In this document: positions 11,174 to 54,057 of the stretch, piece by piece
How the letters are laid out: each line of letters begins with the position of its first letter
Numbering within the stretch: the first letter of the stretch is position 1
Assembly (NCBI GenBank): GCA_965200965.1
Contig: OZ241744.1
Coordinates: 2,592,001-2,656,000 of the forward strand
DNA length: 64,000 nt
Direction: 5' to 3'
DNA from: an uncultured Candidatus Binatia bacterium
GTDB lineage: Bacteria > Desulfobacterota > Binatia > Bin18
Translations under genes and position numbers: made by a program
Notes under the pieces: model-generated
The model's input: only the letters and a program-made list of their open reading frames with translations
Databases searched by the model: none
What the model was told of the DNA's origin: nothing

Positions 11174-11224
11174 GAGGACGAAGTGTGTCACCAGATCGCC
11201 AGGAAGGCGGCACGTTTCGTCCTT
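11174..11224. repeat. 51-bp palindromic element family 1, intergenic
   Basis: GAGG ACGAAG TGTGTCA CCAGATCGCCAG GAAGGCGGCACG TTTCGT CCTT. Confidence 0.85.
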
Positions 11225-12648: not shown

Positions 12649-13349
12649 CAGGAGTCCTGCGGGCCGTTTTCCTGGCGGGCCTCTTTGCGGGCCCGGCGAC
12701 CCAGGTAGCCGCCGTGGTGGAACTTGGCGTAGTCGGCCTTGGTGAAGCCCTTGCGGTCCATCAGCACCAGGGCCAGGGCGTCGCCAAGGGCCATCATGGC
12801 CGCGGTGCTTGACGAGGGGGTGAGGCCGAGCGAGCAGGCTTCTTTGACCGCGCCGATACTCAGCACCACATCGCTCTGGCGGGCTATGGGCGAGCGCGGG
12901 TGGCCGGTGATGGCGATCAGCGGCAGACTGTTGAGCGCTTTGGCCCGGCCTAGCATCTCGATGACTTCCCGCGTTTTGCCGCTGTTGGAGAAGATGATCA
13001 TCACGTCGTCGGGGCTGACGAGGCCGAGATCGCCGTGGGCGGCTTCTCCGGGGTGGAGAAAGCAGGCCGGCGTGCCGGTTGATGACAAGGTGGTGGCGGT
13101 TTTCAGGGCGATGATGCCGACCTTGCCCATGCCGGTGGTGATGACCTTGCCCTTGCAGTGCTGCAAAATCTGGACCGCACGCAGGAAATCGGCGGTGAGC
13201 GGAATGGCCCGGATGGCCTCGGCCTCGGCGGTCAGCACGGCCCGGGCCCGGACGAGTTCGGGGGGCAGGTCAAAAGCAGTGAACGTGTCATCAGATCGAC
13301 CGGAAGGCGACACATTCACTCCTCGCGGCTTGTTCTTGCGGGGCGGCAT
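12648..13349 (-). CDS. KpsF/GutQ-family SIS sugar-phosphate isomerase (no CBS domains)
   Basis: TTGMGK, HPGEAAHGDLG, SNSGKT, EAC.LGLTP and FHHGGYLG. Confidence 0.9.
   Translation of the reverse strand: MPPRKNKPRGVNVSPSGRSDDTFTAFDLPPELVRARAVLTAEAEAIRAIPLTADFLRAVQILQHCKGKVITTGMGKVGIIALKTATTLSSTGTPACFLHPGEAAHGDLGLVSPDDVMIIFSNSGKTREVIEMLGRAKALNSLPLIAITGHPRSPIARQSDVVLSIGAVKEACSLGLTPSSSTAAMMALGDALALVLMDRKGFTKADYAKFHHGGYLGRRARKEARQENGPQDS
13274..13324. repeat. 51-bp palindromic element family 1, in frame in the KpsF-like N-terminus
   Basis: Encodes RGVNVSPSGRSDDTFTAF; 41-bp core is the exact reverse complement of 15572-15612. Confidence 0.92.
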
Positions 13350-15566: not shown

Positions 15567-15617
15567 GAGACGTGAATGTGTCGCCTTCCGGTCGATCTGA
15601 TGACACGTTCACGCCTT
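15567..15617. repeat. 51-bp palindromic element family 1, in the uvrB/cupredoxin divergent intergenic region
   Basis: GAGA CGTGAA TGTGTCGCCTTC CGGTCGATCTGA TGACACG TTCACG CCTT. Confidence 0.92.
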
Positions 15618-17038: not shown

Positions 17039-18519
17039 TCTGTCCTGGGGTCAGCATCGTCTACCGCATTGAGAAGCGGACGGTACTCCAGGGGGATCGG
17101 CTGGCGTACCCGCGCTGGGCCGCGCTGCCGGTCCGTGAGCGGGGCGTTGCTGTACGGTGTTCTGGGCCGGGCTGGGCTGGTATTGGCCGTGCGTTGCCAG
17201 GTGTCGCTCCGGGCCACCTCTCCGACCGGTACCCGGACTTTGACAAAGCGCGCGTCTCTGGTCAGAAAACCGCCCGGTTTTTCTCCAGCCTGGACACGGG
17301 CTTTTCCTTGGCTTGGGCCTTTGCCGCCGCCCTGCCCTTTGGGGCCGGCCCGGTTGGGGTCGGACTGGGGACCGGGCGTATTTCTGTCCGGTCGGTGTCG
17401 CTCCCCGGGGATATTCGGGTCGTCTCCTTGGGCGCGCTGGGTGGGGGCGTGTCGGGGCGACACACCCCTCGCCCCGTCTGCCTGTTGCTCAGCCGGGGGT
17501 TGCTGTTGGCCGTGCCGCTCTGTCTGCTCAAATTGAATACCGCCACCCTGTTGGGACGGCTTGTGGTTCTGATCGCCCTCTGACGGCCCGGCATCCCGCG
17601 GCTGTTGGCCGGCTTGGGTCCCCTCGGCCGCGGAGGAAGGTGTGTTGAGTCCCTCGGACTGTTTGGCGAGGTCCTGTTTCTGATTGCCGCCCGCCCCGTC
17701 ATTCCGGCCCTCAGCAACAAACAACTTCAGGTCAATTGGCAGCAGTTGCGGTAGCCGGATATCCAGTGTAATACGCTGCTCAGCCTCCTCAATCAGGCGT
17801 TCTTTCTGGCGGCGGCTCAGACCCGGCATCCTGAGTTGCTCAACCAGGGCGACAAGTTCGGTGCCGGCCGCTTGCTCCTGTGGCGTGTTGCCCTGAGCCG
17901 CCAGCTCACGCGTCTTTTTTTCGAGTTCGGCCAGGGACTCGGATGAGGGGTCGAGGCTGGGAGAGAGCCGTGCCGAAATGGGCTGAGGCTGAGGCCGCGG
18001 CCAGAACAGGCCCAGGGCGACGGCCACACACAGGCCGGACACCAGCAGGCCGATTGGCACACGCCTGTCCAGCTGGAAGGGTACCTCCCGTTCTGGAACA
18101 AAAAACGCCGCCCGTCTGGCCGTGTCACGCTGGAGAAAGAGCGCCATGTGGTCTGGAGGCTGAGCGAGGGTTACCAGGGTCAGAAAGCGCTCTTTGCTCA
18201 GCGTTTTTTCGTCCAGCAGCGCGGCCGCGGTCTCGTGGCTCATGTGGACGTGACGCAGGGTCTTCCAGAAGAAGAAAGCCCACCCTCCGAGGGGACCGAG
18301 CAACAGGGTGAGCGGCCAGGACAAGCTCACCAGCGTCAATGAACCGCCCAGCCCAAGTGCCAGCCCCAGGGGCAGAAAAAAGCTCAGGATGTTGAGATAG
18401 CGGTGCCGACGGAGGCGCTGAGCCGTCCTGTTGATAACGCCGGGAATCATGACCTCCTTGTGATCGCTGTTGTCACGATTCCCGGTGTGGGCCGGAGGCG
18501 GGCGGCTGGGGTCTTGCAC
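17035..18519 (-). CDS. Membrane protein with coiled-coil and G/Q/P-rich tail (MoxR-associated hypothetical)
   Basis: 3 TM-like segments, low-complexity tail, IPLEYR C-terminus; overlaps the MoxR start by 4 nt. Confidence 0.75.
   Translation of the reverse strand: MQDPSRPPPAHTGNRDNSDHKEVMIPGVINRTAQRLRRHRYLNILSFFLPLGLALGLGGSLTLVSLSWPLTLLLGPLGGWAFFFWKTLRHVHMSHETAAALLDEKTLSKERFLTLVTLAQPPDHMALFLQRDTARRAAFFVPEREVPFQLDRRVPIGLLVSGLCVAVALGLFWPRPQPQPISARLSPSLDPSSESLAELEKKTRELAAQGNTPQEQAAGTELVALVEQLRMPGLSRRQKERLIEEAEQRITLDIRLPQLLPIDLKLFVAEGRNDGAGGNQKQDLAKQSEGLNTPSSAAEGTQAGQQPRDAGPSEGDQNHKPSQQGGGIQFEQTERHGQQQPPAEQQADGARGVSPRHAPTQRAQGDDPNIPGERHRPDRNTPGPQSDPNRAGPKGQGGGKGPSQGKARVQAGEKPGGFLTRDARFVKVRVPVGEVARSDTWQRTANTSPARPRTPYSNAPLTDRQRGPARVRQPIPLEYRPLLNAVDDADPRTE
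17441..17470. repeat. Short REP-like hairpin inside the low-complexity CDS tail
   Basis: GTGGGGGCGTGTCG-GGG-CGACACACCCCTC. Confidence 0.4.
18437..18488. repeat. ~52-bp palindromic element family 2, in frame near the CDS 5' end
   Basis: ACGCCGGGAATCATGAC...GTCACGATTCCCGGTGT; encodes TGNRDNSDHKEVMIPG; 30 bp identical (inverted) to the 19707 copy. Confidence 0.9.
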
Positions 18520-19681: not shown

Positions 19682-21178
19682 ATGGGACGGAACACGGGCG
19701 CTTTCCACACCGGGAATCGTGACAACAGCGATCACACCCAACTCAGGATTCCCTGTGTCACCCATACAGCGCAACATGGCTCCATTCAGTTCCTGATTCT
19801 GGCTCCTGTTCTGACCCTTTGCCTTTTAGGGCTTATTGTCCGCAGCGCCAGTTCGGCCGTCGATCATCGGATTGAAAAGCAAAAGATCGCCGAACAACTC
19901 AGGCAGCGTTTGAGCGAGGTCTACAGCGACCCCACTCCGCCGCGGCTGAGCCGCCCCGCTCCGGAGCCGACGGCTGAGCCGCCCGCTGTGGCTGAGCCGG
20001 CCGCTGCTCAAGTGGCAGCTGCAACTGCCGAGCAGCCATCTCAGCCCCAATCCTTCCCGCTCCAGACCACGCACACGGTGCGCAAGAAGGATACCTTTGA
20101 GACCATACTGCGAGGCCAGGGGCTTGGCCGGAGCGCCGCCAGCACCTGGATTACGGCCTGGATTACGGCCGCCGGAAAAGAGAAGCAAGTCCGCAATCTG
20201 CAAATCGATCGGCGCTTCTCTTTTGTTTTTGATGAAGGTCCCGAAGAGCCGCTTCTGACCAGTCTGAGCTATGACCTCAGCGCCCTCTCACGGCTGACTC
20301 TTGAACGAAGGCCAGACGGCAACGTTACCTCCCGCCTCGAAGCGCTGCCGACCAGCCTGGTGTGGCGGGCGGTCTCTGGCCGGATTACCAGTAGTCTGTA
20401 CGAGGCGGCGGTAAACACCGCCGGGGTGCCCGACCGTATTGTTGACGAAATGATTGATCTGGGCTGGGATTTCGATTTCTCTTCCGACCTGAGGGCCGGC
20501 GACACCTTCAAGGTGATCTTTGAAGAATACCAGCGTGACGGCCAGCCGGTTCAATATGGGCGAGTCCTGGCGACTGAAATCGTCAATCAAGGCAAGTCCT
20601 CGACAGTCTTGTCACTTGACCAAACCGAGGGCTTCCTGCGCTATCCGCTGCGTTTCACCCGGATTTCGTCGGTGTTTACCAAGGCCAGGTTTCATCCTGT
20701 TCTCAAACGTCACCGGCCTCATAACGGCGTTGATTTTGCCGCCCCACGCGGTACGCCGGTACGGGCGGTGGCCAATGGGAGGGTCACCTGCGCCGGTTGG
20801 GAGGGCGGGTTTGGTCGGCTTGTCCGCATTGACCATCCTGGGGCGTACTCCACCGAGTACGCCCATCTGCATAGCATTGCCAAAGGGATCAGGGTTGGAG
20901 TGCGGGTCAAGCGTGGTCAAAAAATTGGCAGTGTAGGTTCGACCGGTTTGGCCACTGGACCGCATCTCCACTTCGGGCTGTTCAAGAATGGCAGATATGT
21001 AAATCCGTTGAGCGCAAACCTTCCCAGAGTTCCGAAAACCGATACGCGCAAACCGGACCCGGTCCGGGCCAAGCTGAAAAAAACGCTGACCGAATACCTG
21101 GCTCGGCTGGAGCCTGACCAGGCCTCAACTTTTGCCGCGGTAGAAACGACCAAGCCGCCAAGCCGGCCCCGCTCCTGA
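19682..21178 (+). CDS. M23 family peptidoglycan endopeptidase (MepM-like)
   Basis: HNGVDFAA, YAHL and STGLATGPHLHF; N-terminal TM; start uncertain. Confidence 0.92.
   Translation: MGRNTGAFHTGNRDNSDHTQLRIPCVTHTAQHGSIQFLILAPVLTLCLLGLIVRSASSAVDHRIEKQKIAEQLRQRLSEVYSDPTPPRLSRPAPEPTAEPPAVAEPAAAQVAAATAEQPSQPQSFPLQTTHTVRKKDTFETILRGQGLGRSAASTWITAWITAAGKEKQVRNLQIDRRFSFVFDEGPEEPLLTSLSYDLSALSRLTLERRPDGNVTSRLEALPTSLVWRAVSGRITSSLYEAAVNTAGVPDRIVDEMIDLGWDFDFSSDLRAGDTFKVIFEEYQRDGQPVQYGRVLATEIVNQGKSSTVLSLDQTEGFLRYPLRFTRISSVFTKARFHPVLKRHRPHNGVDFAAPRGTPVRAVANGRVTCAGWEGGFGRLVRIDHPGAYSTEYAHLHSIAKGIRVGVRVKRGQKIGSVGSTGLATGPHLHFGLFKNGRYVNPLSANLPRVPKTDTRKPDPVRAKLKKTLTEYLARLEPDQASTFAAVETTKPPSRPRS
19707..19758. repeat. 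~52-bp palindromic element family 2, in frame with the M23 ORF N-terminus
   Basis: ACACCGGGAATCGTGACAACAGCGATCACACCCAACTCAGGATTCCCTGTGT; encodes TGNRDNSDHTQLRIPC. Confidence 0.9.
20145..20170 (+). repeat. Exact 12-bp in-frame tandem duplication (WITA x2)
   Basis: CCTGGATTACGG twice. Confidence 0.85.
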
Positions 21179-31857: not shown

Positions 31858-33062
31858 AGCGGACGGTCGCTGGCTTGGCCCAACAGGTATTTGCCCATCA
31901 GTTCGGCCACCCGGTCGGGGTGGGCGTTGATATGCAGCGGCATGGCCTGAAAGTCACGATAACGGCGCGCAAAGGACCCGCTCTCACGCAGGCCATTGCC
32001 GCCCTGGACCCTGAGCATCAGGCGCATGGCTTCGTCACACAGCCGCAGGGCAACCATGCTGTAGCCCAACTGACGCAGATAATCGGCTTCGGTCGGGCTT
32101 CTCCCGGCTTCAATGCGGGCGTCGGTCTCGGTGCAGCCCGTTTCGACCGCGGCCCGGGCCGCAGCAATTGAGGCCCCGGCCTGACCGATGTTGAGTTGCG
32201 CCGAGGGCCGTTCGGCGACTTTGACGCCAAAGATGGCGACCCGGTCTGCCAGTTCAGCACAGGCTTCCTCCAACGCGGCGCTGGCAAGGCCGACCGCTTG
32301 GGCGGCGAGCCACAGGTCTGACAGGGCAACCCAGTCTTCCCGATAGCGTTGGGCCACAACGGGGGTCTGGGGGTCGCGGAAGGTGTAACGAAAATCGAGC
32401 GGAAAAGGCCGCAGCAGGGAGGCCGGAATCGAGACCGCCTCGTAGTTGATATGGTCGGTGGCCGACGCCCGCAGGCTCATCGAGTTCCAGGTTGGATCAA
32501 TCGACACCCCCGGGGTGTCGGTCCGAACCAGCGTAAAACGCATATCCGGCTTCCCCTTGGGCTGTGTCTCCCTATCGTCCAAAGCAAACACACACGCCGC
32601 CCACTCGCCATAGCGCGAGCCAGAGGCAAAACTTGCCCGGCCGCTCAGAATCACCCGGTCTCCGTCACACCGGCCCCGCACACTCGTTCCCGCTCCAGCC
32701 GGAAAACTGACCCATTCCCGCTTGTCCACAATCTGCCCTAAGAGGGCCGCGGCCTGTGGTCCCATCTGGGCCACAATGAAGTGGAACACGCACAGATGAT
32801 TCCACACACACCAGGCGGTTGAGGCGCAGCGGCCGGCTACTGCCTCAAGCTCCCTGGCAATCTGGCCGATGCTGGCCTCTACCCCACCGATAGTGCGGCT
32901 GGCCGACAGGCGCATGACATCGGTCTGTTTGAGGGCCTGAATAAGGTCCGGGTCAAGGCTGCGGGTGCGGTCGGCCTGGGGAGCTTGCTCGGCAATCCGG
33001 TCCAGCAGCGGCGCGCAAACCAATGGGTGCTCCCGCCCCATAAACTCCTGTACGCTATTCAT
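31854..33062 (-). CDS. Acyl-CoA dehydrogenase-like flavin-dependent monooxygenase (HsaA-like)
   Basis: [20 protein letters not shown] and RRYRD..A..LH. Confidence 0.8.
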
Positions 33063-33080
33063 ACGCAGACTCTCCTTCTC

Positions 33081-34475
33081 CTACCCTTGCCAGTATTGCT
33101 GCACCCAGGCCAGGGCGGCTTCACGGCTCGCCAGCTTGCCTTCGAGCTGCGCGTCTTCAACCGCGGTCAGAATGTCTGTGAAGCGCGGTCCGGGGCGGAG
33201 GCCAAGGGCGATGAGATCACGGCCGGTCAGGAGACGCGGCGGCGCGAGTTGGACCGGCCCGAGGCGTTCTCGCTGCCGGCGGCAGAACTCGTATGGACGC
33301 AGGTCGCCGCTTGAGGCCAGGGCGTCGAGGCGCGCCAACTCCAACAGTTCTTCAATGCCGTCTTCGCGCAGAAACCGTTTGAGCTTGGCCGGACGCATAT
33401 TCGGGGCGCTGAGCAGCCGCAGATGGTTCTTGACCAGATAGGCCACCCGCTGCCACACTGCGCGTGAGCGTTTCAGCCGTTGACAGATGGCCACCGCCTG
33501 CTCTGCCCCCTGCTCACAGTGACCAGAAAACGTGGTGCGCTGTGGCTTGACCATGTCGTGCAGCAGAGCGCCAAGCGCCAAAGTTTCGCTCAGGACGGAA
33601 TGTGTCGCTTTCCCCTCGGTCTGTTGACACGTTTCGTCCTGTGGCCGCCCATCTGCCCATTTGTCCAGTTCGGCCAGCAGCAGCAGGGTATGGGTGAACA
33701 CATCCCCCTGTGGATGAAAATCGGGCGATTGCTCAACGCCGCGCAGCGCTTCGATTTCGGGCAGGATGACGGCCAGCAGGCCGGTCTCGGCCAGCAGTTG
33801 AAAACCGCGCTGGCCCCCGCCCTCGGTGAGAATCTTGACGACCTCGTCACCGATCCGTTCCCAGGCGATAGTGCTGATCCTTGGGGCGAGGGCTTGGAGG
33901 GCGGCGAAGGTCTGGGGGGCGAGGGCAAATCCCAGCCGGGCGGCAAACCGGACGGCGCGGATCAGGCGCAAGTGATCCTCGCGGAAACGGGCCACCGGAT
34001 CGCCAATGGCCCGGATCACCCGCTGGCTCAGGTCGTGTTGGCCGCCAACATAATCAATGACCTGCTCGGTAACGGTATCGTAGAACATGCCGTTGATGGT
34101 GAAATCGCGCCGCCGCGCGTCTTCCCGCGCATCAAGGCCGGAATGTGTCGCCTTCCCCTCGAGATGTTGACACGTTTCATCCTTGCTGAAGCGGACGCCG
34201 GTCGGGTGGCGTCCGTCAAGATAGCGGCCGTCGGCCCGAAAGGTCGCCACCTCTACTTTTGAGACCAGCACGACCCCGAACTGCACCCCAATTGGGACGG
34301 CCTGGGGAAACAGGCTCAGGACTTGGTCGACCCGGGCGCTGGTTGCCACATCAAAATCCTTGGCCTCCAGCCCCAGCAGGCGGTCGCGTACACAGCCCCC
34401 GGCCAGATAGGCGCTGAAACCGTGGGCGTGCAGCGTCTCAATAATCGTTCGAGCATGGCGTTCCTGGGGGCTCAC
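33081..34475 (-). CDS. cca: CCA tRNA nucleotidyltransferase with HD domain (two 17-aa element insertions)
   Basis: GGCVRD, KDFDVAT, EVATFR, RRDFTIN, EDHLRLIRAVRF and LLHD; GTG start inferred. Confidence 0.93.
   Translation of the reverse strand: MSPQERHARTIIETLHAHGFSAYLAGGCVRDRLLGLEAKDFDVATSARVDQVLSLFPQAVPIGVQFGVVLVSKVEVATFRADGRYLDGRHPTGVRFSKDETCQHLEGKATHSGLDAREDARRRDFTINGMFYDTVTEQVIDYVGGQHDLSQRVIRAIGDPVARFREDHLRLIRAVRFAARLGFALAPQTFAALQALAPRISTIAWERIGDEVVKILTEGGGQRGFQLLAETGLLAVILPEIEALRGVEQSPDFHPQGDVFTHTLLLLAELDKWADGRPQDETCQQTEGKATHSVLSETLALGALLHDMVKPQRTTFSGHCEQGAEQAVAICQRLKRSRAVWQRVAYLVKNHLRLLSAPNMRPAKLKRFLREDGIEELLELARLDALASSGDLRPYEFCRRQRERLGPVQLAPPRLLTGRDLIALGLRPGPRFTDILTAVEDAQLEGKLASREAALAWVQQYWQG
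33591..33641. repeat. 51-bp palindromic element family 1, in frame in the cca HD domain
   Basis: CAGG ACGGAA TGTGTCGCTTTC CCCTCGGTCTGT TGACACG TTTCGT CCTG; encodes QDETCQQTEGKATHSVL. Confidence 0.95.
34134..34184. repeat. 51-bp palindromic element family 1, in frame in the cca catalytic head
   Basis: AAGG CCGGAA TGTGTCGCCTTC CCCTCGAGATGT TGACACG TTTCAT CCTT; encodes KDETCQHLEGKATHSGL. Confidence 0.95.
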
Positions 34476-34547
34476 CCGGCTATGGTGACACGGCCAGGAA
34501 GCAGGATCAACTTGTCGGAGACGGTCCGGCTGGTTAGACTGAGGCCC

Positions 34548-36014
34548 ATGAAGCTGACGGCAGAACAGGTGTGCGCCGCCACGCGCGGAACGCTGAGCTC
34601 CGGGCCGGCAGACACGCTGTTTCGTTCGGTGACAATTGACTCCCGCACGGCCAGCCAGGGGGCTTTGTTTGTACCGCTGCCCGGTGCCAGGACCGACGGC
34701 CATGCCTATCTTGGGGCGGCCGTTCGGCGGGGAGCCGCCGGCTTCCTGTACGCCCGCCAGGCCGTGGCCACGCTGCCAACCGGGGCAAGGGCGAAACGTG
34801 CCAACATCCCGGGGGGAAGGCGACACGTTCCGGCCTTGGTGAGCATTGGCGTATCAGACCCCCTGACCGCCCTCCAGGACCTCTCGGCCTGGCACCGCGC
34901 CAGACTGCCGGCCACGGTCGTCGGCATCGCCGGCAGTAACGGCAAGACGACCACCAAAGAATTGCTGGCCCAGGTGTGCGCCGCTCACCGGCCGAGCCTG
35001 GCCACCCCGGGCAACCTGAACAATCAGATCGGCCTGCCGCTCAGCCTGCTGCGGGCCGACGGTGACGAAGACATCCTGATCCTGGAGATGGGTACCAGCG
35101 GCCCCGGTGAGCTGAGCAGGCTCAGCCGCCTGGCCCGTCCGCATATCGGGGTCATCACCTCAATTGCCGAAGAGCATACCGAGATGCTGACCGACCTGTC
35201 CGGTGTGATCGAAGCCGAGACCGAGCTGCTCGCGGCTCTGCCCGGCGATGGGCTGGCAATTGTGCCTGGCGATGATGCCGCCCTGGTGGAGACCGTCCGG
35301 GGCCGGGCCGTGTGTCGGATTGTCACCTTTGGCGAACACGCGAGCAACGCCTTCCGGGCCGCTGACATCCGGGTTTCCCGGCAGGGAACGCAGTTCATGG
35401 CCCAGACCCCGCTTGGGGCCCGTCCGGTCCGCCTGGGTCTGCTGGGCAGTCATTTTGCCCTGGCCGCGCTGGTGGCGATTGCCGTTGCAACTGAGTGCGG
35501 TATTGGCCTGGACGCGGTATGCGAGACCCTGGGCACGGCCCGCGGCGCGCCGCGGCGCATGGCGGTCATTGCCGTGCCCGAGTGCGGCCTGACGATTCTT
35601 GACGACTGCTACAATGCTAATCCCGCCTCCGTGCAACAGGCCCTGCTGACCGCCGGGCAGGTGCGTACCGCGGGCGAGCGGCTGATCGTCGTGCTGGGCG
35701 ATATGCGGGAGTTGGGAGCGATCAGCCTGGTCCGCCACCAGGAAATGGGCGAGCTGGTGGCGCGCCTTGACCCCCACCCGGACCTGCTTGTTACGGTGGG
35801 ACAGGAAGCCCGGGCTATTGCCGACCAGGCCCGGGCCAAAGGGGTAGCGGTCCAGACCTTTGCTGCGGCGGATGAGGCCGCGGCTTTTCTCCACGACACC
35901 CTTCGGCCCTCTGCCGGCCGGCACTTGGTGCTGGTCAAAGGCTCGCGCGGAGTACAGCTTGAACGTGTCAGCCAAGCCCTGACCGGCCCCTGCCCGGATG
36001 AGAGCGAGGCGTGA
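34548..36014 (+). CDS. murF: UDP-MurNAc-tripeptide--D-Ala-D-Ala ligase
   Basis: IDSR, DGH, GSNGKTTTKE, NNQIGLP, DCYNANP, LGDMRELG and KGSRG. Confidence 0.96.
   Translation: MKLTAEQVCAATRGTLSSGPADTLFRSVTIDSRTASQGALFVPLPGARTDGHAYLGAAVRRGAAGFLYARQAVATLPTGARAKRANIPGGRRHVPALVSIGVSDPLTALQDLSAWHRARLPATVVGIAGSNGKTTTKELLAQVCAAHRPSLATPGNLNNQIGLPLSLLRADGDEDILILEMGTSGPGELSRLSRLARPHIGVITSIAEEHTEMLTDLSGVIEAETELLAALPGDGLAIVPGDDAALVETVRGRAVCRIVTFGEHASNAFRAADIRVSRQGTQFMAQTPLGARPVRLGLLGSHFALAALVAIAVATECGIGLDAVCETLGTARGAPRRMAVIAVPECGLTILDDCYNANPASVQQALLTAGQVRTAGERLIVVLGDMRELGAISLVRHQEMGELVARLDPHPDLLVTVGQEARAIADQARAKGVAVQTFAAADEAAAFLHDTLRPSAGRHLVLVKGSRGVQLERVSQALTGPCPDESEA
34787..34837. repeat. 51-bp palindromic element family 1, in frame in murF
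   Basis: AAGG GCGAAA CGTGCCA ACATCCCGGGGG GAAGGCGACACG TTCCGG CCTT; encodes RAKRANIPGGRRHVPAL. Confidence 0.93.
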
Positions 36015-38626: not shown

Positions 38627-38667
38627 CAGTCCTGTAGGTCGGCTTAGCCGGCAGGCGTAAGCCGGCG
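38627..38667 (+). repeat. GTAG-type REP-like hairpin, copy 1
   Basis: CAGTCCT GTAG GTCGGCTTAGCC GGCA GGCGTAAGCCGGC; 35/38 identical to the 42483 copy. Confidence 0.88.
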
Positions 38668-42466: not shown

Positions 42467-42572
42467 GGGTCAATATCCCTTCCAGTCCTGTAGGTCGGCG
42501 TAGCCGCCGGGCGTAAGCCGACACAATGAAAAGACTCCCAGCCTGCTGATAGCTACCGGAGATGCACGGCAT
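42459..42572 (-). pseudogene. Possible truncated gene start (MPCISG...) running into the REP-like hairpin
   Basis: ATG overlaps the 3' end of the upstream ORF; after ~16 codons it enters the hairpin and ends at 37 aa. Confidence 0.4.
42483..42522 (+). repeat. GTAG-type REP-like hairpin, copy 2
   Basis: CAGTCCT GTAG GTCGGCGTAGCC GCCG GGCGTAAGCCGAC. Confidence 0.88.
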
Positions 42573-51800: not shown

Positions 51801-51997
51801 AGGTCGAAGACCGTATTGCCGTGACCTACCAGGCTGCTCCGCAACTGGCAAGCGCTATTGGTCGCCACCTGAGCTATATCCAGCAGGAAACCCTGGCTCG
51901 GTCGCTCGCCCGGGCGCAGCCGACCGGCGACCGGGTTGAAAGTGGGGATATCGACGGGGCCGCAATTACGCTTGGAGTCCAGCGCGAAGAGGAGTGA
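48866..51997 (+). CDS. ileS: Isoleucine--tRNA ligase, type 2 (archaeal/eukaryote-like)
   Basis: DGPPFATGLPHYGH, WTTTPWTLP, DWAISRNRYWG and KMSKR; long C-terminus without Zn finger. Confidence 0.97.
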   Translation: MKPVAENVKFPEVELEVLQFWDEAKVFENTLKKTRDQQPFIFYDGPPFATGLPHYGHLLAGTIKDIIPRFWTMRGRYVDRRFGWDCHGLPVEMEIEQALDLHGKSEIERFGVARFNAECRKIVLRYTEEWEKTVRRTGRWVDFRNDYRTMDLSFMETVWWALRQMWDKDLVYEGSKVLPFSTRLGTVLSNFEANLNYKDVQDPTVTVRFAADDEEKTSFLAWTTTPWTLPSNLALAVGPDIAYVKVRDHEDGTHYILAEARLATYFPKPGTCTLVQRYTGRDLVGRGYRPVFPYFAEHKQRAAFRLIAADYVTTEDGTGIVHIAPAFGEDDFLACQQAGIALVNPVDDEGKFTAQVPDFAGLHVKEADARIIAHLKRDKQLVHQGTIFHSYPYCWRSDTPLIYRAVNTWFVRVEAFRDRLVANNQRTTWVPEHLRDGRFGKWLENARDWAISRNRYWGTPLPIWKSEDGSEVVCIGSVEELAQRAGVRVTDLHREYVDALSFPSTTGGLMRRVPQVFDCWFESGSMPYAQLHYPFDNAERFSRTFPADFIAEGLDQTRGWFYTLMVVASALFDKPAFHNVVVNGLVLAEDGKKMSKRLKNYPEPDEIMAQHGADAMRLYLINSPLVRAEELRFSEHGVRDTVRRLLLPWWNAYKFFVTYALVDGWKPERVPAEASPNILDRWIVSRQQTLIRRVNAEMEAYRLYTVVPALLDFLNELTNWYVRLGRRRFWAGTPADKNFACRSLHQVLVTFSKLMAPFTPFLADAVYRNLSTLQPERAAASVHLEDFPSYDPAAVDAGLEDAVARMQRVILLGRSRRNERKVKVRIPLQTLTVLHRQESVLNDLKPLEGYIREELNVKTLAYSTAEDEKVELRAKPNPQLLGPRFGRAFGQVREQLATLSREQMLRLEAGQSLQFSGHAFQPDEVHILRQAKDGVPDVHSDRFISIEFPCELNDELLSEGLAREVVHLIQHMRKEAGYQVEDRIAVTYQAAPQLASAIGRHLSYIQQETLARSLARAQPTGDRVESGDIDGAAITLGVQREEE

Positions 51998-52035
51998 ACA
52001 CGTCATCAGATCGAAAGGTGACATGTTCACTCCTT
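51989..52035. repeat. Family 1 element (47 bp) overlapping the ileS stop codon
   Basis: GAGG AGTGAA CACGTCA TCAGATCG AAAGGTGACATG TTCACT CCTT. Confidence 0.85.
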
Positions 52036-53799: not shown

Positions 53800-54057
53800 A
53801 TGACGCCGGAACTGACCGCCATCCTCACTGCCACTGTGGCCCTGGCCGGGCTGATCCTGACCGGCAACCGCTCTCTGGGTCAGCGGATGGACCGGCTGGA
53901 GGCGCGGATGGATCGGATAGAAGGCCGCATGGACCGGATGGATAGCCGCATGGACCGGATAGAGGCGCGGATTGGTGGCGTGGAGCGGGAGCAGGCCCAC
54001 CTGGCCGGGCTGCTTGAGGGGCTGCGGGAGGCGATCAGCGGCCACCGGGCGGCCTGA
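53800..54057 (+). CDS. Small membrane-anchored heptad-repeat coiled-coil protein
   Basis: N-terminal TM; 4 x 21-bp repeat (53887-53970) encoding MDRxxxR. Confidence 0.75.
   Translation: MTPELTAILTATVALAGLILTGNRSLGQRMDRLEARMDRIEGRMDRMDSRMDRIEARIGGVEREQAHLAGLLEGLREAISGHRAA

What the first reader, a model, noticed from the sequence alone, without database searches (positions are those of the whole stretch)
33591..34184. CCA-adding enzyme carries two element insertions, one beside the RRD motif
Seen: one insert lies between the loop following EVATFR (DGRYLDGRHP..VRFS) and ED..RRDFTIN; the other is within the HD domain just before LLHD. Both are read in the same phase (DETCQxxEGKATHSxL). Known: in class II nucleotidyltransferases this flexible-loop region is needed for terminal A addition, and its deletion yields CC-adding enzymes. 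Inference: the insert could change CCA/CC/A specificity or simply be tolerated. Segments around VVLVSKVEV and VKPQRTTF also look shortened.
Basis: partly seen in the sequence, partly recalled or inferred. Interest (0 to 1): 0.72.

Follow-up and report, generated by a model that had tools for sequence, protein, structure and literature searches.

The report
Selfish hairpins translated inside CCA enzyme
Two copies of a 51-base hairpin repeat that is scattered through this bacterium's genome sit in frame inside its only detected tRNA CCA-adding enzyme gene, each adding 17 residues predicted to be floppy loops that the enzyme likely tolerates without changing its job.

Summary
Both inserts are copies of one 51-bp palindromic element: 89 copies in the genome, 43 inside predicted genes, clean 51-bp gains without target duplication at orthologous empty sites. 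This scan had already found the element elsewhere in this genome (e1-7191693) and palindromic inserts in other genomes' cca genes.

Insert 1 lies between the BxA motif and RRD but after an intact flexible loop; 94 of 97 parsed homologues keep this spacing at 24-25 residues. It is shared with sister species G007. G003, on another branch, has a different 45-bp hairpin at the same base junction, most likely an independent hit. Insert 2 lies in a naturally length-variable HD-domain loop.

A change of specificity is unlikely: this is the only class II nucleotidyltransferase found, no class I enzyme was found, 38 of 51 tRNA calls lack an encoded CCA, all motifs are intact, the head is under purifying selection (dN/dS 0.25) while insert 1 drifts (0.86), and AlphaFold keeps the fold with both inserts at low confidence. 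Best reading: tolerated, Rickettsia-RPE-like insertions. The mobilising enzyme was not found; activity is untested.

The parts
33081..34478 (-). cca gene: class II tRNA nucleotidyltransferase with HD domain, 465 aa; GTG start at 34478 inferred from homologue alignment
34134..34184 (-). Insert 1: 51-bp palindromic element, aa 99-115, between the post-loop beta-strand and the helix leading to RRD
   Evidence: pLDDT <50 at aa 99-113
33591..33641 (-). Insert 2: 51-bp palindromic element, aa 280-296, in the variable loop before LLHD; G007 keeps an internally deleted 30-bp remnant
   Evidence: pLDDT <50 at aa 280-293
34185..34238 (-). BxA motif (R81-A82-D83), flexible loop and following strand (aa 81-98), intact
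34104..34112 (-). Motif B RRD (aa 123-125), intact
34254..34259 (-). Site of a 12-bp (4-aa) deletion in the turn before EVATFR, shared with G007
33539..33542 (-). Junction of a 21-bp (7-aa) deletion in the HD domain between two CAG repeats; not in G007; present in strain contigs X3, X7, X12
34787..34837 (+). Third copy of the element, in frame in the divergent murF-like gene (34548-36014); closest relative of insert 1 (45/51); empty site in G007

Best explanation
Both inserts are in-frame copies of a genome-wide 51-bp hairpin repeat, and the enzyme likely still adds the full CCA end, carrying them as predicted disordered surface loops. Shown: the element is a 16-bp covarying stem around a conserved 19-nt head; it is 17 codons long, so it keeps the frame; it occupies clean 51-bp gaps at orthologous empty sites without target duplication; the host gene keeps every catalytic motif and its flexible loop, and no other tRNA nucleotidyltransferase was found. 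Inferred: the element is a non-autonomous mobile element spread by an unidentified enzyme acting in trans, with local copying (the three copies at cca-murF are each other's closest or near-closest relatives). Selection removes harmful insertions, so survivors sit at permissive turns; the turn before the RRD helix was probably hit twice independently in this genus.
For: Copy number and control. Stem covariation: 88.4% of cells paired, 0/500 shuffles as high, slid controls 41-52%. 43 of 89 copies inside 36 predicted genes, all 43 of length 0 mod 3; 12 more supply a gene's stop codon (my own gene calls). Hosts include thrS, dnaX, murJ, murF and cas3. 8 of 12 copies whose flanks mapped in fetched relative DNA show a 0-bp empty site. 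One class II gene, no class I gene; the same in G007 and G003. 13 of 51 ARAGORN calls end in CCA. Motifs A-E, BxA and HD residues present. dN/dS against G007: head/neck 0.25, loop 0 non-synonymous, insert 1 0.86. AlphaFold with 28 sequences: mean pLDDT 88.8, inserts <50; Foldseek best hits are CCA-adding enzymes (6QY6, 1MIV). Precedent: an RPE-carrying guanylate kinase is translated and active, with altered substrate affinity (PMC2229807, passages).
Against: No activity or expression data; no RNA holder was listed. Site 1 is length-invariant in 94 of 97 parsed homologues, so it is not a naturally plastic loop, and loop swaps in this interval can abolish A-addition (PMC2910056, passages). The enzyme also has two deletions, one unique (HD spacing 5 against 11-17 in 92 others), which could mean relaxed function of the HD domain. 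Low pLDDT in the inserts may reflect missing alignment coverage rather than disorder. No mobilising enzyme was found, so 'mobile element' rests on empty sites.
Confidence: 0.85

Rival explanations
1. Insert 1 measurably alters the enzyme (slower or less faithful A-addition, or extra A-tailing) by tugging on the loop-to-motif-B lever, and the lineage lives with or uses the change.
For: It sits within the BxA-to-RRD interval that controls the CTP-to-ATP switch (PMC2910056, PMC7014341, passages). The spacing is otherwise 24-25 residues. E. coli poly(A) polymerase has a longer segment here (35 residues by my count in the alignment). The site was probably occupied twice.
Against: Insert 1 drifts near neutrally (6 non-synonymous, 2 synonymous against G007; 2 of 3 strain SNPs in it are non-synonymous). 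G003's insert has a different sequence and length. The region that carries the PAP signature reads PIGVQFGVVLV, unlike E. coli PAP's LVGRRFRLAHV (signature recalled). Full CCA addition must persist because no partner enzyme was found.
Confidence: 0.1
2. The enzyme has become a CC-adding or dead enzyme and something else completes the tRNA ends.
For: Two insertions and two deletions in one gene; NCBIfam CCA cut-offs are not reached.
Against: No second class II or class I enzyme in a single-contig, 99.3% complete genome. The loop is not deleted. Purifying selection. The insert-free orthologue also misses the NCBIfam cut-offs. The frame is intact in strains from three studies.
Confidence: 0.03
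3. The hairpins are removed before or after translation (intron- or intein-like), so the mature enzyme is normal.
For: Strong hairpin with a conserved head; length always keeps the frame inside genes.
Against: No Rfam match. Copies occur in both orientations and five frames, and 12 supply stop codons, which fits selection on the translated product. The stem of insert 1 has decayed (folding z -0.74).
Confidence: 0.02

Closest known systems
Rickettsia palindromic elements (RPEs; seen via PMC10969869, PMC2229807 and PMC1779305 passages; the primary paper PMC186582 was not held)
   Same: Dispersed palindromic repeat, lineage-restricted, often in frame inside conserved genes, apparently tolerated, mobilising enzyme unclear.
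   Different: 51 bp rather than about 100-150 bp; host is probably a Binatia-class bacterium (best named hit, 61%); stem covaries between copies while the head is conserved. Sequence homology to RPEs was not tested.
Intragenic GTAG/CGTC REPs and RAYT transposases (PMC3733652, passages and supplement 3 search)
   Same: Short palindromes, some in frame, some inserted twice in one ORF, some supplying stop codons.
   Different: No GTAG or CGTC tag. The genome's real GTAG REPs are a separate family, 0 of 20 inside genes, and the RAYT genes of relatives are flanked by those REPs, not by this element. No cca or nucleotidyltransferase row was found in that supplement.
Bacterial MITEs (Correia, RUP, ERIC; PMC2229807 passages)
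   Same: Terminal inverted repeats, no coding capacity for a transposase.
   Different: No target-site duplication, half the usual size, arms vary in blocks between copies, no parent IS found.
Class II CCA-adding enzymes, e.g. G. stearothermophilus 1MIV and P. halocryophilus 6QY6
   Same: Fold, motifs A-E, BxA and flexible loop.
   Different: 17 extra residues where 1MIV has the short turn at about residues 101-104, plus an HD domain with a second insert.

Membership tests
Class II CCA-adding enzyme | Core motifs A-E including EDxxR template | tested here: met
   GGCVRD..DFD at 27, RRD at 123, motif C at 142, EDHLR at 167, ERI..E at 207
Class II CCA-adding enzyme | [quoted passage not shown] | tested here: met
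   definition from PMC2910056 and PMC7014341 passages
Class II CCA-adding enzyme | Class II nucleotidyltransferase fold | tested here: met
   AlphaFold pLDDT 88.8; Foldseek E 6.5e-20 to 6QY6
Class II CCA-adding enzyme | Curated NCBIfam cut-off | tested here: inconclusive
   best PRK13299 216.6 bits against 290; the insert-free orthologue also misses it, 242
Class II CCA-adding enzyme | Adds C, C and A to tRNA | not testable with these tools
   inferred from sole copy and tRNA genes lacking CCA
Bacterial CC-adding enzyme | Flexible loop deleted | tested here: not met
Bacterial CC-adding enzyme | Separate A-adding partner in the genome | tested here: not met
RPE-like intragenic palindromic repeat | Dispersed palindrome with many in-frame copies in unrelated conserved genes | tested here: met
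RPE (Rickettsia families proper) | Length about 100-150 bp | tested here: not met
   85 of 89 copies are 51 bp
RPE (Rickettsia families proper) | Sequence homology to RPE families | not tested
   no RPE sequences were compared
MITE | Terminal inverted repeats | tested here: met
   16-bp arms
MITE | Target-site duplication | tested here: not met
   0-bp empty sites at 8 of 12 mapped copies; 2-4-mer duplication in at most 7 of 57
MITE | Cognate autonomous IS with the same ends | tested here: inconclusive
   no lone arm flanking a gene with four 15-nt patterns; DDE families were not searched
REP/RAYT | GTAG or CGTC tag, mostly extragenic | tested here: not met
REP/RAYT | RAYT gene flanked by the repeat | tested here: not met
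   no PF01797 in G000; RAYTs in G001, G006, G024 are flanked by GTAG REPs

The most novel reading that the evidence does not exclude
The turn between the flexible loop and motif B is a recurrent landing pad for selfish hairpins, and the 15-17 residues they add retune the CTP-to-ATP switch, giving these sponge-associated bacteria a CCA-adding enzyme with altered A-adding kinetics or a second tailing activity in a genome with no detected poly(A) polymerase.
Probability: 0.08. Interest if true: 0.75.

Novelty: new member of a known kind. Interest (0 to 1): 0.38.

Why it matters
It gives a natural set for testing how much the switch region of a CCA-adding enzyme tolerates: orthologues with no insert (G005), a 17-residue insert (G000, G007) and a different 15-residue insert (G003) at one junction that is otherwise length-invariant. 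It also adds a very short, duplication-free palindromic element to the list of repeats that invade proteins, and its mobilising enzyme is an open question. It does not show a new enzyme activity.

Tried and rejected
Rfam at E<=1 over 33000-35500: one chance-level hit (E 0.97), nothing on the element. A resemblance of the element's head to SRP RNA or a hammerhead core came from memory and had no Rfam support; dropped.

RAYT as mobiliser: rejected. Reverse transcriptase: G000 has one weak RVT_1 match with a stop inside and no element near it. Lone arms marking a parent IS: one hit, itself a sister-type hairpin; only the first 80 of 702 long self-repeat rows were printed and no DDE family was searched, so an IS parent is not excluded.

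Assigning G003's 45-bp insert to a family: neither the family-1 nor a family-2 profile hit it at E<=1. Single-sequence AlphaFold was useless (pLDDT 44). No RNA holder was listed, which says nothing on expression.

Literature: 'Binatia'+'repeat'+'palindrom' gave 1 unrelated listing; 'Rickettsia palindromic element'+'pcnB' gave 0, so my recollection that an RPE lies in the Rickettsia conorii pcnB/cca gene is unverified. Searches listed no description of this element. Supplements of the Rickettsia primary papers, which I could not see, may list such a case.

Full report
Observation. The finding lies in a minus-strand gene, window 33081-34478, 465 aa from a GTG start inferred by alignment, with PolyA_pol, PolyA_pol_RNAbd, HD and tRNA_NucTran2_2 matches. 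The best named relative is a Candidatus Binatia genome at 61%, so the host is probably of that class (inference). Aligning orthologues from 30 loci shows two extra segments: insert 1 at window 34134-34184 (aa 99-115) and insert 2 at 33591-33641 (aa 280-296). Contigs from runs X3, X7 and X12, three studies, cover both inserts without indels in the gene; X11 gave only fragments.

The element. Both inserts match a dispersed repeat. An iterated profile finds 89 non-overlapping copies at E<=0.1 and none in the reversed genome at that threshold; 85 of 89 are 51 bp. An alignment of 54 copies (those in the regions I fetched, E<1e-5) gives a 16-bp stem and a conserved 19-nt head. For that structure 88.4% of cells pair, 81 cells change on both sides, 0 of 500 shuffles reach this, and slid controls pair 41-52%; the copies are related, so this is not a probability. 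Covariation could come from selection on a hairpin or from arm-to-arm correction; I cannot separate these. Rfam has no match. A covariance model finds it in 6 of 7 congeners, 2 of 3 genomes of genus g8 and 0 of the other 30 relatives; in a class-wide draw, 11 of 151 genomes, all in those two genera. In G001, G003, G005, G006 and G024 the hits are a sister type with fixed arms and a variable head.

Where it lands. With my own self-trained gene calls (no standard caller was available), 43 of 89 copies lie inside 36 genes, 12 supply a stop codon, 1 overlaps a start and 33 are intergenic; all 43 internal copies keep the frame, using five of six frames. Of 28 host proteins scanned, 26 have Pfam matches, among them ThrRS, DnaX, MurJ and Cas3 with three copies. 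Of 12 copies whose flanks mapped in fetched relative DNA, 8 show a 0-bp empty site, including cca site 1, murF and two in thrS; 2 mapped imprecisely, 1 is shared with G007, and cca site 2 shows a net 48 bp against congeners. There is no target duplication, only a weak symmetric preference for C at -4 and G at +4 (34 and 33 of 57, p about 1e-5 each, picked out of 20 positions). Copies cluster (53 of 89 within 3 kb of another; simulations mean 12, maximum 33), and insert 1's nearest relatives are the murF copy (45/51) and insert 2 (43/51), which suggests local copying.

Site 1. Hoffmeier et al. define the loop region as BxA to DxxRRD and show that swaps there can abolish A-addition (PMC2910056, passages); loop deletion marks bacterial CC-adding enzymes (PMC7014341, passages). 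Insert 1 is inside that interval but after the loop and its strand, aligned to about residues 101-104 of 1MIV, whereas the disordered loop centre is residues 82-93 in the Planococcus enzyme (PMC8563995, passages; numbering only roughly comparable). Among 110 loci, 97 parsed and 13 were dropped by the pattern; 94 of the 97 have 24-25 residues from FR to RRD, the exceptions being G000, G007 (41) and G003 (39). All 28 g8 genomes have the standard head-domain span. G003's insert is a different 45-bp hairpin, also beginning AAGG and ending near CCTT, at the same base junction. The cca tree on 411 gap-free codons puts G003 with the insert-free G001, G005 and G006 (100%) and rejects a G000+G007+G003 clade (AU p 5e-5). 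Two gains are simpler than one gain with two precise losses and replacement of the sequence, but local recombination is not excluded, and neither profile placed the G003 insert.

Site 2. The loop before LLHD is plastic: unrelated homologues carry 37-43 residues where most have 19-20 (4 rows were mis-anchored by the pattern and ignored). G007 has an internally deleted remnant, so both insertions predate the G000-G007 split, while the murF copy is later.

Is the enzyme still a CCA adder? G000 is one contig, 99.3% complete, with one PF01743 match, one PF12627 match and no class I PF09249 match; G007 and G003 likewise. Only 13 of 51 ARAGORN calls end in CCA, and several short ones are probably stem plus discriminator, so C, C and A must be added by an enzyme. 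All motifs are present. Against G007, dN/dS is 0.25 in head/neck, 0.28 in HD, 0.46 in the tail, with no amino-acid change in aa 81-98, but 0.86 in insert 1 (17 codons, small numbers). Listed strain differences are 16 synonymous and 12 non-synonymous outside the inserts, 1 and 3 inside (the table omitted 2 rows). AlphaFold with 28 sequences gives pLDDT 88.8, pTM 0.86, below 50 only at 85-87, 99-113 and 280-293, and Foldseek returns CCA-adding enzymes first. Against this: no activity or expression data, an otherwise invariant site 1, and a unique 7-residue HD deletion.

Mobiliser. G000 has no Y1 transposase match. Three element-rich relatives have a RAYT, but it is flanked by GTAG REPs, a separate family that in G000 is 0 of 20 inside genes. 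No parent IS was seen (limited). The mechanism of spread is therefore inferred, not shown; my best guess is a hairpin-recognising nuclease or recombinase acting in trans, without staggered cuts.

Comparison and verdict. It works like Rickettsia palindromic elements, one of which leaves guanylate kinase active (PMC2229807, PMC10969869, passages), and like intragenic REPs, which also hit some ORFs twice (PMC3733652, passages); it is not a member of either by length or tag. My literature searches listed no description of this element. The scan had already reported it in this genome, and palindromic inserts in cca genes of five other genomes (the latter unchecked). New here are the double hit in one essential enzyme and the probable independent reuse of one junction next to motif B. 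Novelty: new member of a known kind; interest 0.38.

Noticed in passing
window 11174-11224 (+), 13274-13324 (+), 15567-15617 (-), about 51989-52035 (+): Four more copies of the 51-bp element in the window; the last is shortened (47 bp) and supplies a gene's stop codon.
   Followed up: partly
genome-wide, 57 copies with intact ends: The first and last bases of the element are mostly mismatched (G..T 21, A..C 17, A..T 12, G..C 3). G..T and A..C are reverse complements, as if the head can lie either way round relative to polar ends. Unexplained; may bear on the mechanism.
   Followed up: partly
G000:C1, e.g. 948866-948920, 1938681-1938733, 3412322-3412367; many in G003 and G005: A second hairpin family with ACGATGA...TCATCGT arms, about 36 copies in G000, 8 inside predicted genes.
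   Followed up: partly
window 38627-38664 and 42483-42520; L163-L165: Classic GTAG REPs without a RAYT match in G000; RAYT genes flanked by such REPs occur in G001, G006 and G024.
   Followed up: yes
L012 (G004 cca gene): A 54-bp (18-aa) in-frame insertion in the turn before EVATFR, the same turn that is 4 aa shorter in G000 and G007; no match in G000.
   Followed up: partly
G000:C1:2840128-2842857 and 1914262-1916115: cas3 carries three copies of the element; thrS carries one in its anticodon-binding domain and one that supplies its stop codon.
   Followed up: partly
G000:C1:271700-305600 and 1131700-1165200 (L168): Two long tandem arrays of about 2.4-2.5-kb units, about 90% identical, each with an ORF of about 830-850 aa.
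   Followed up: no
window 18437-18490 and 19705-19758: A pair of 54-bp inverted repeats 1.2 kb apart, unrelated to the 51-bp element.
   Followed up: no
window 53884-53988: A 21-bp tandem repeat run, probably a heptad coiled-coil stretch.
   Followed up: no
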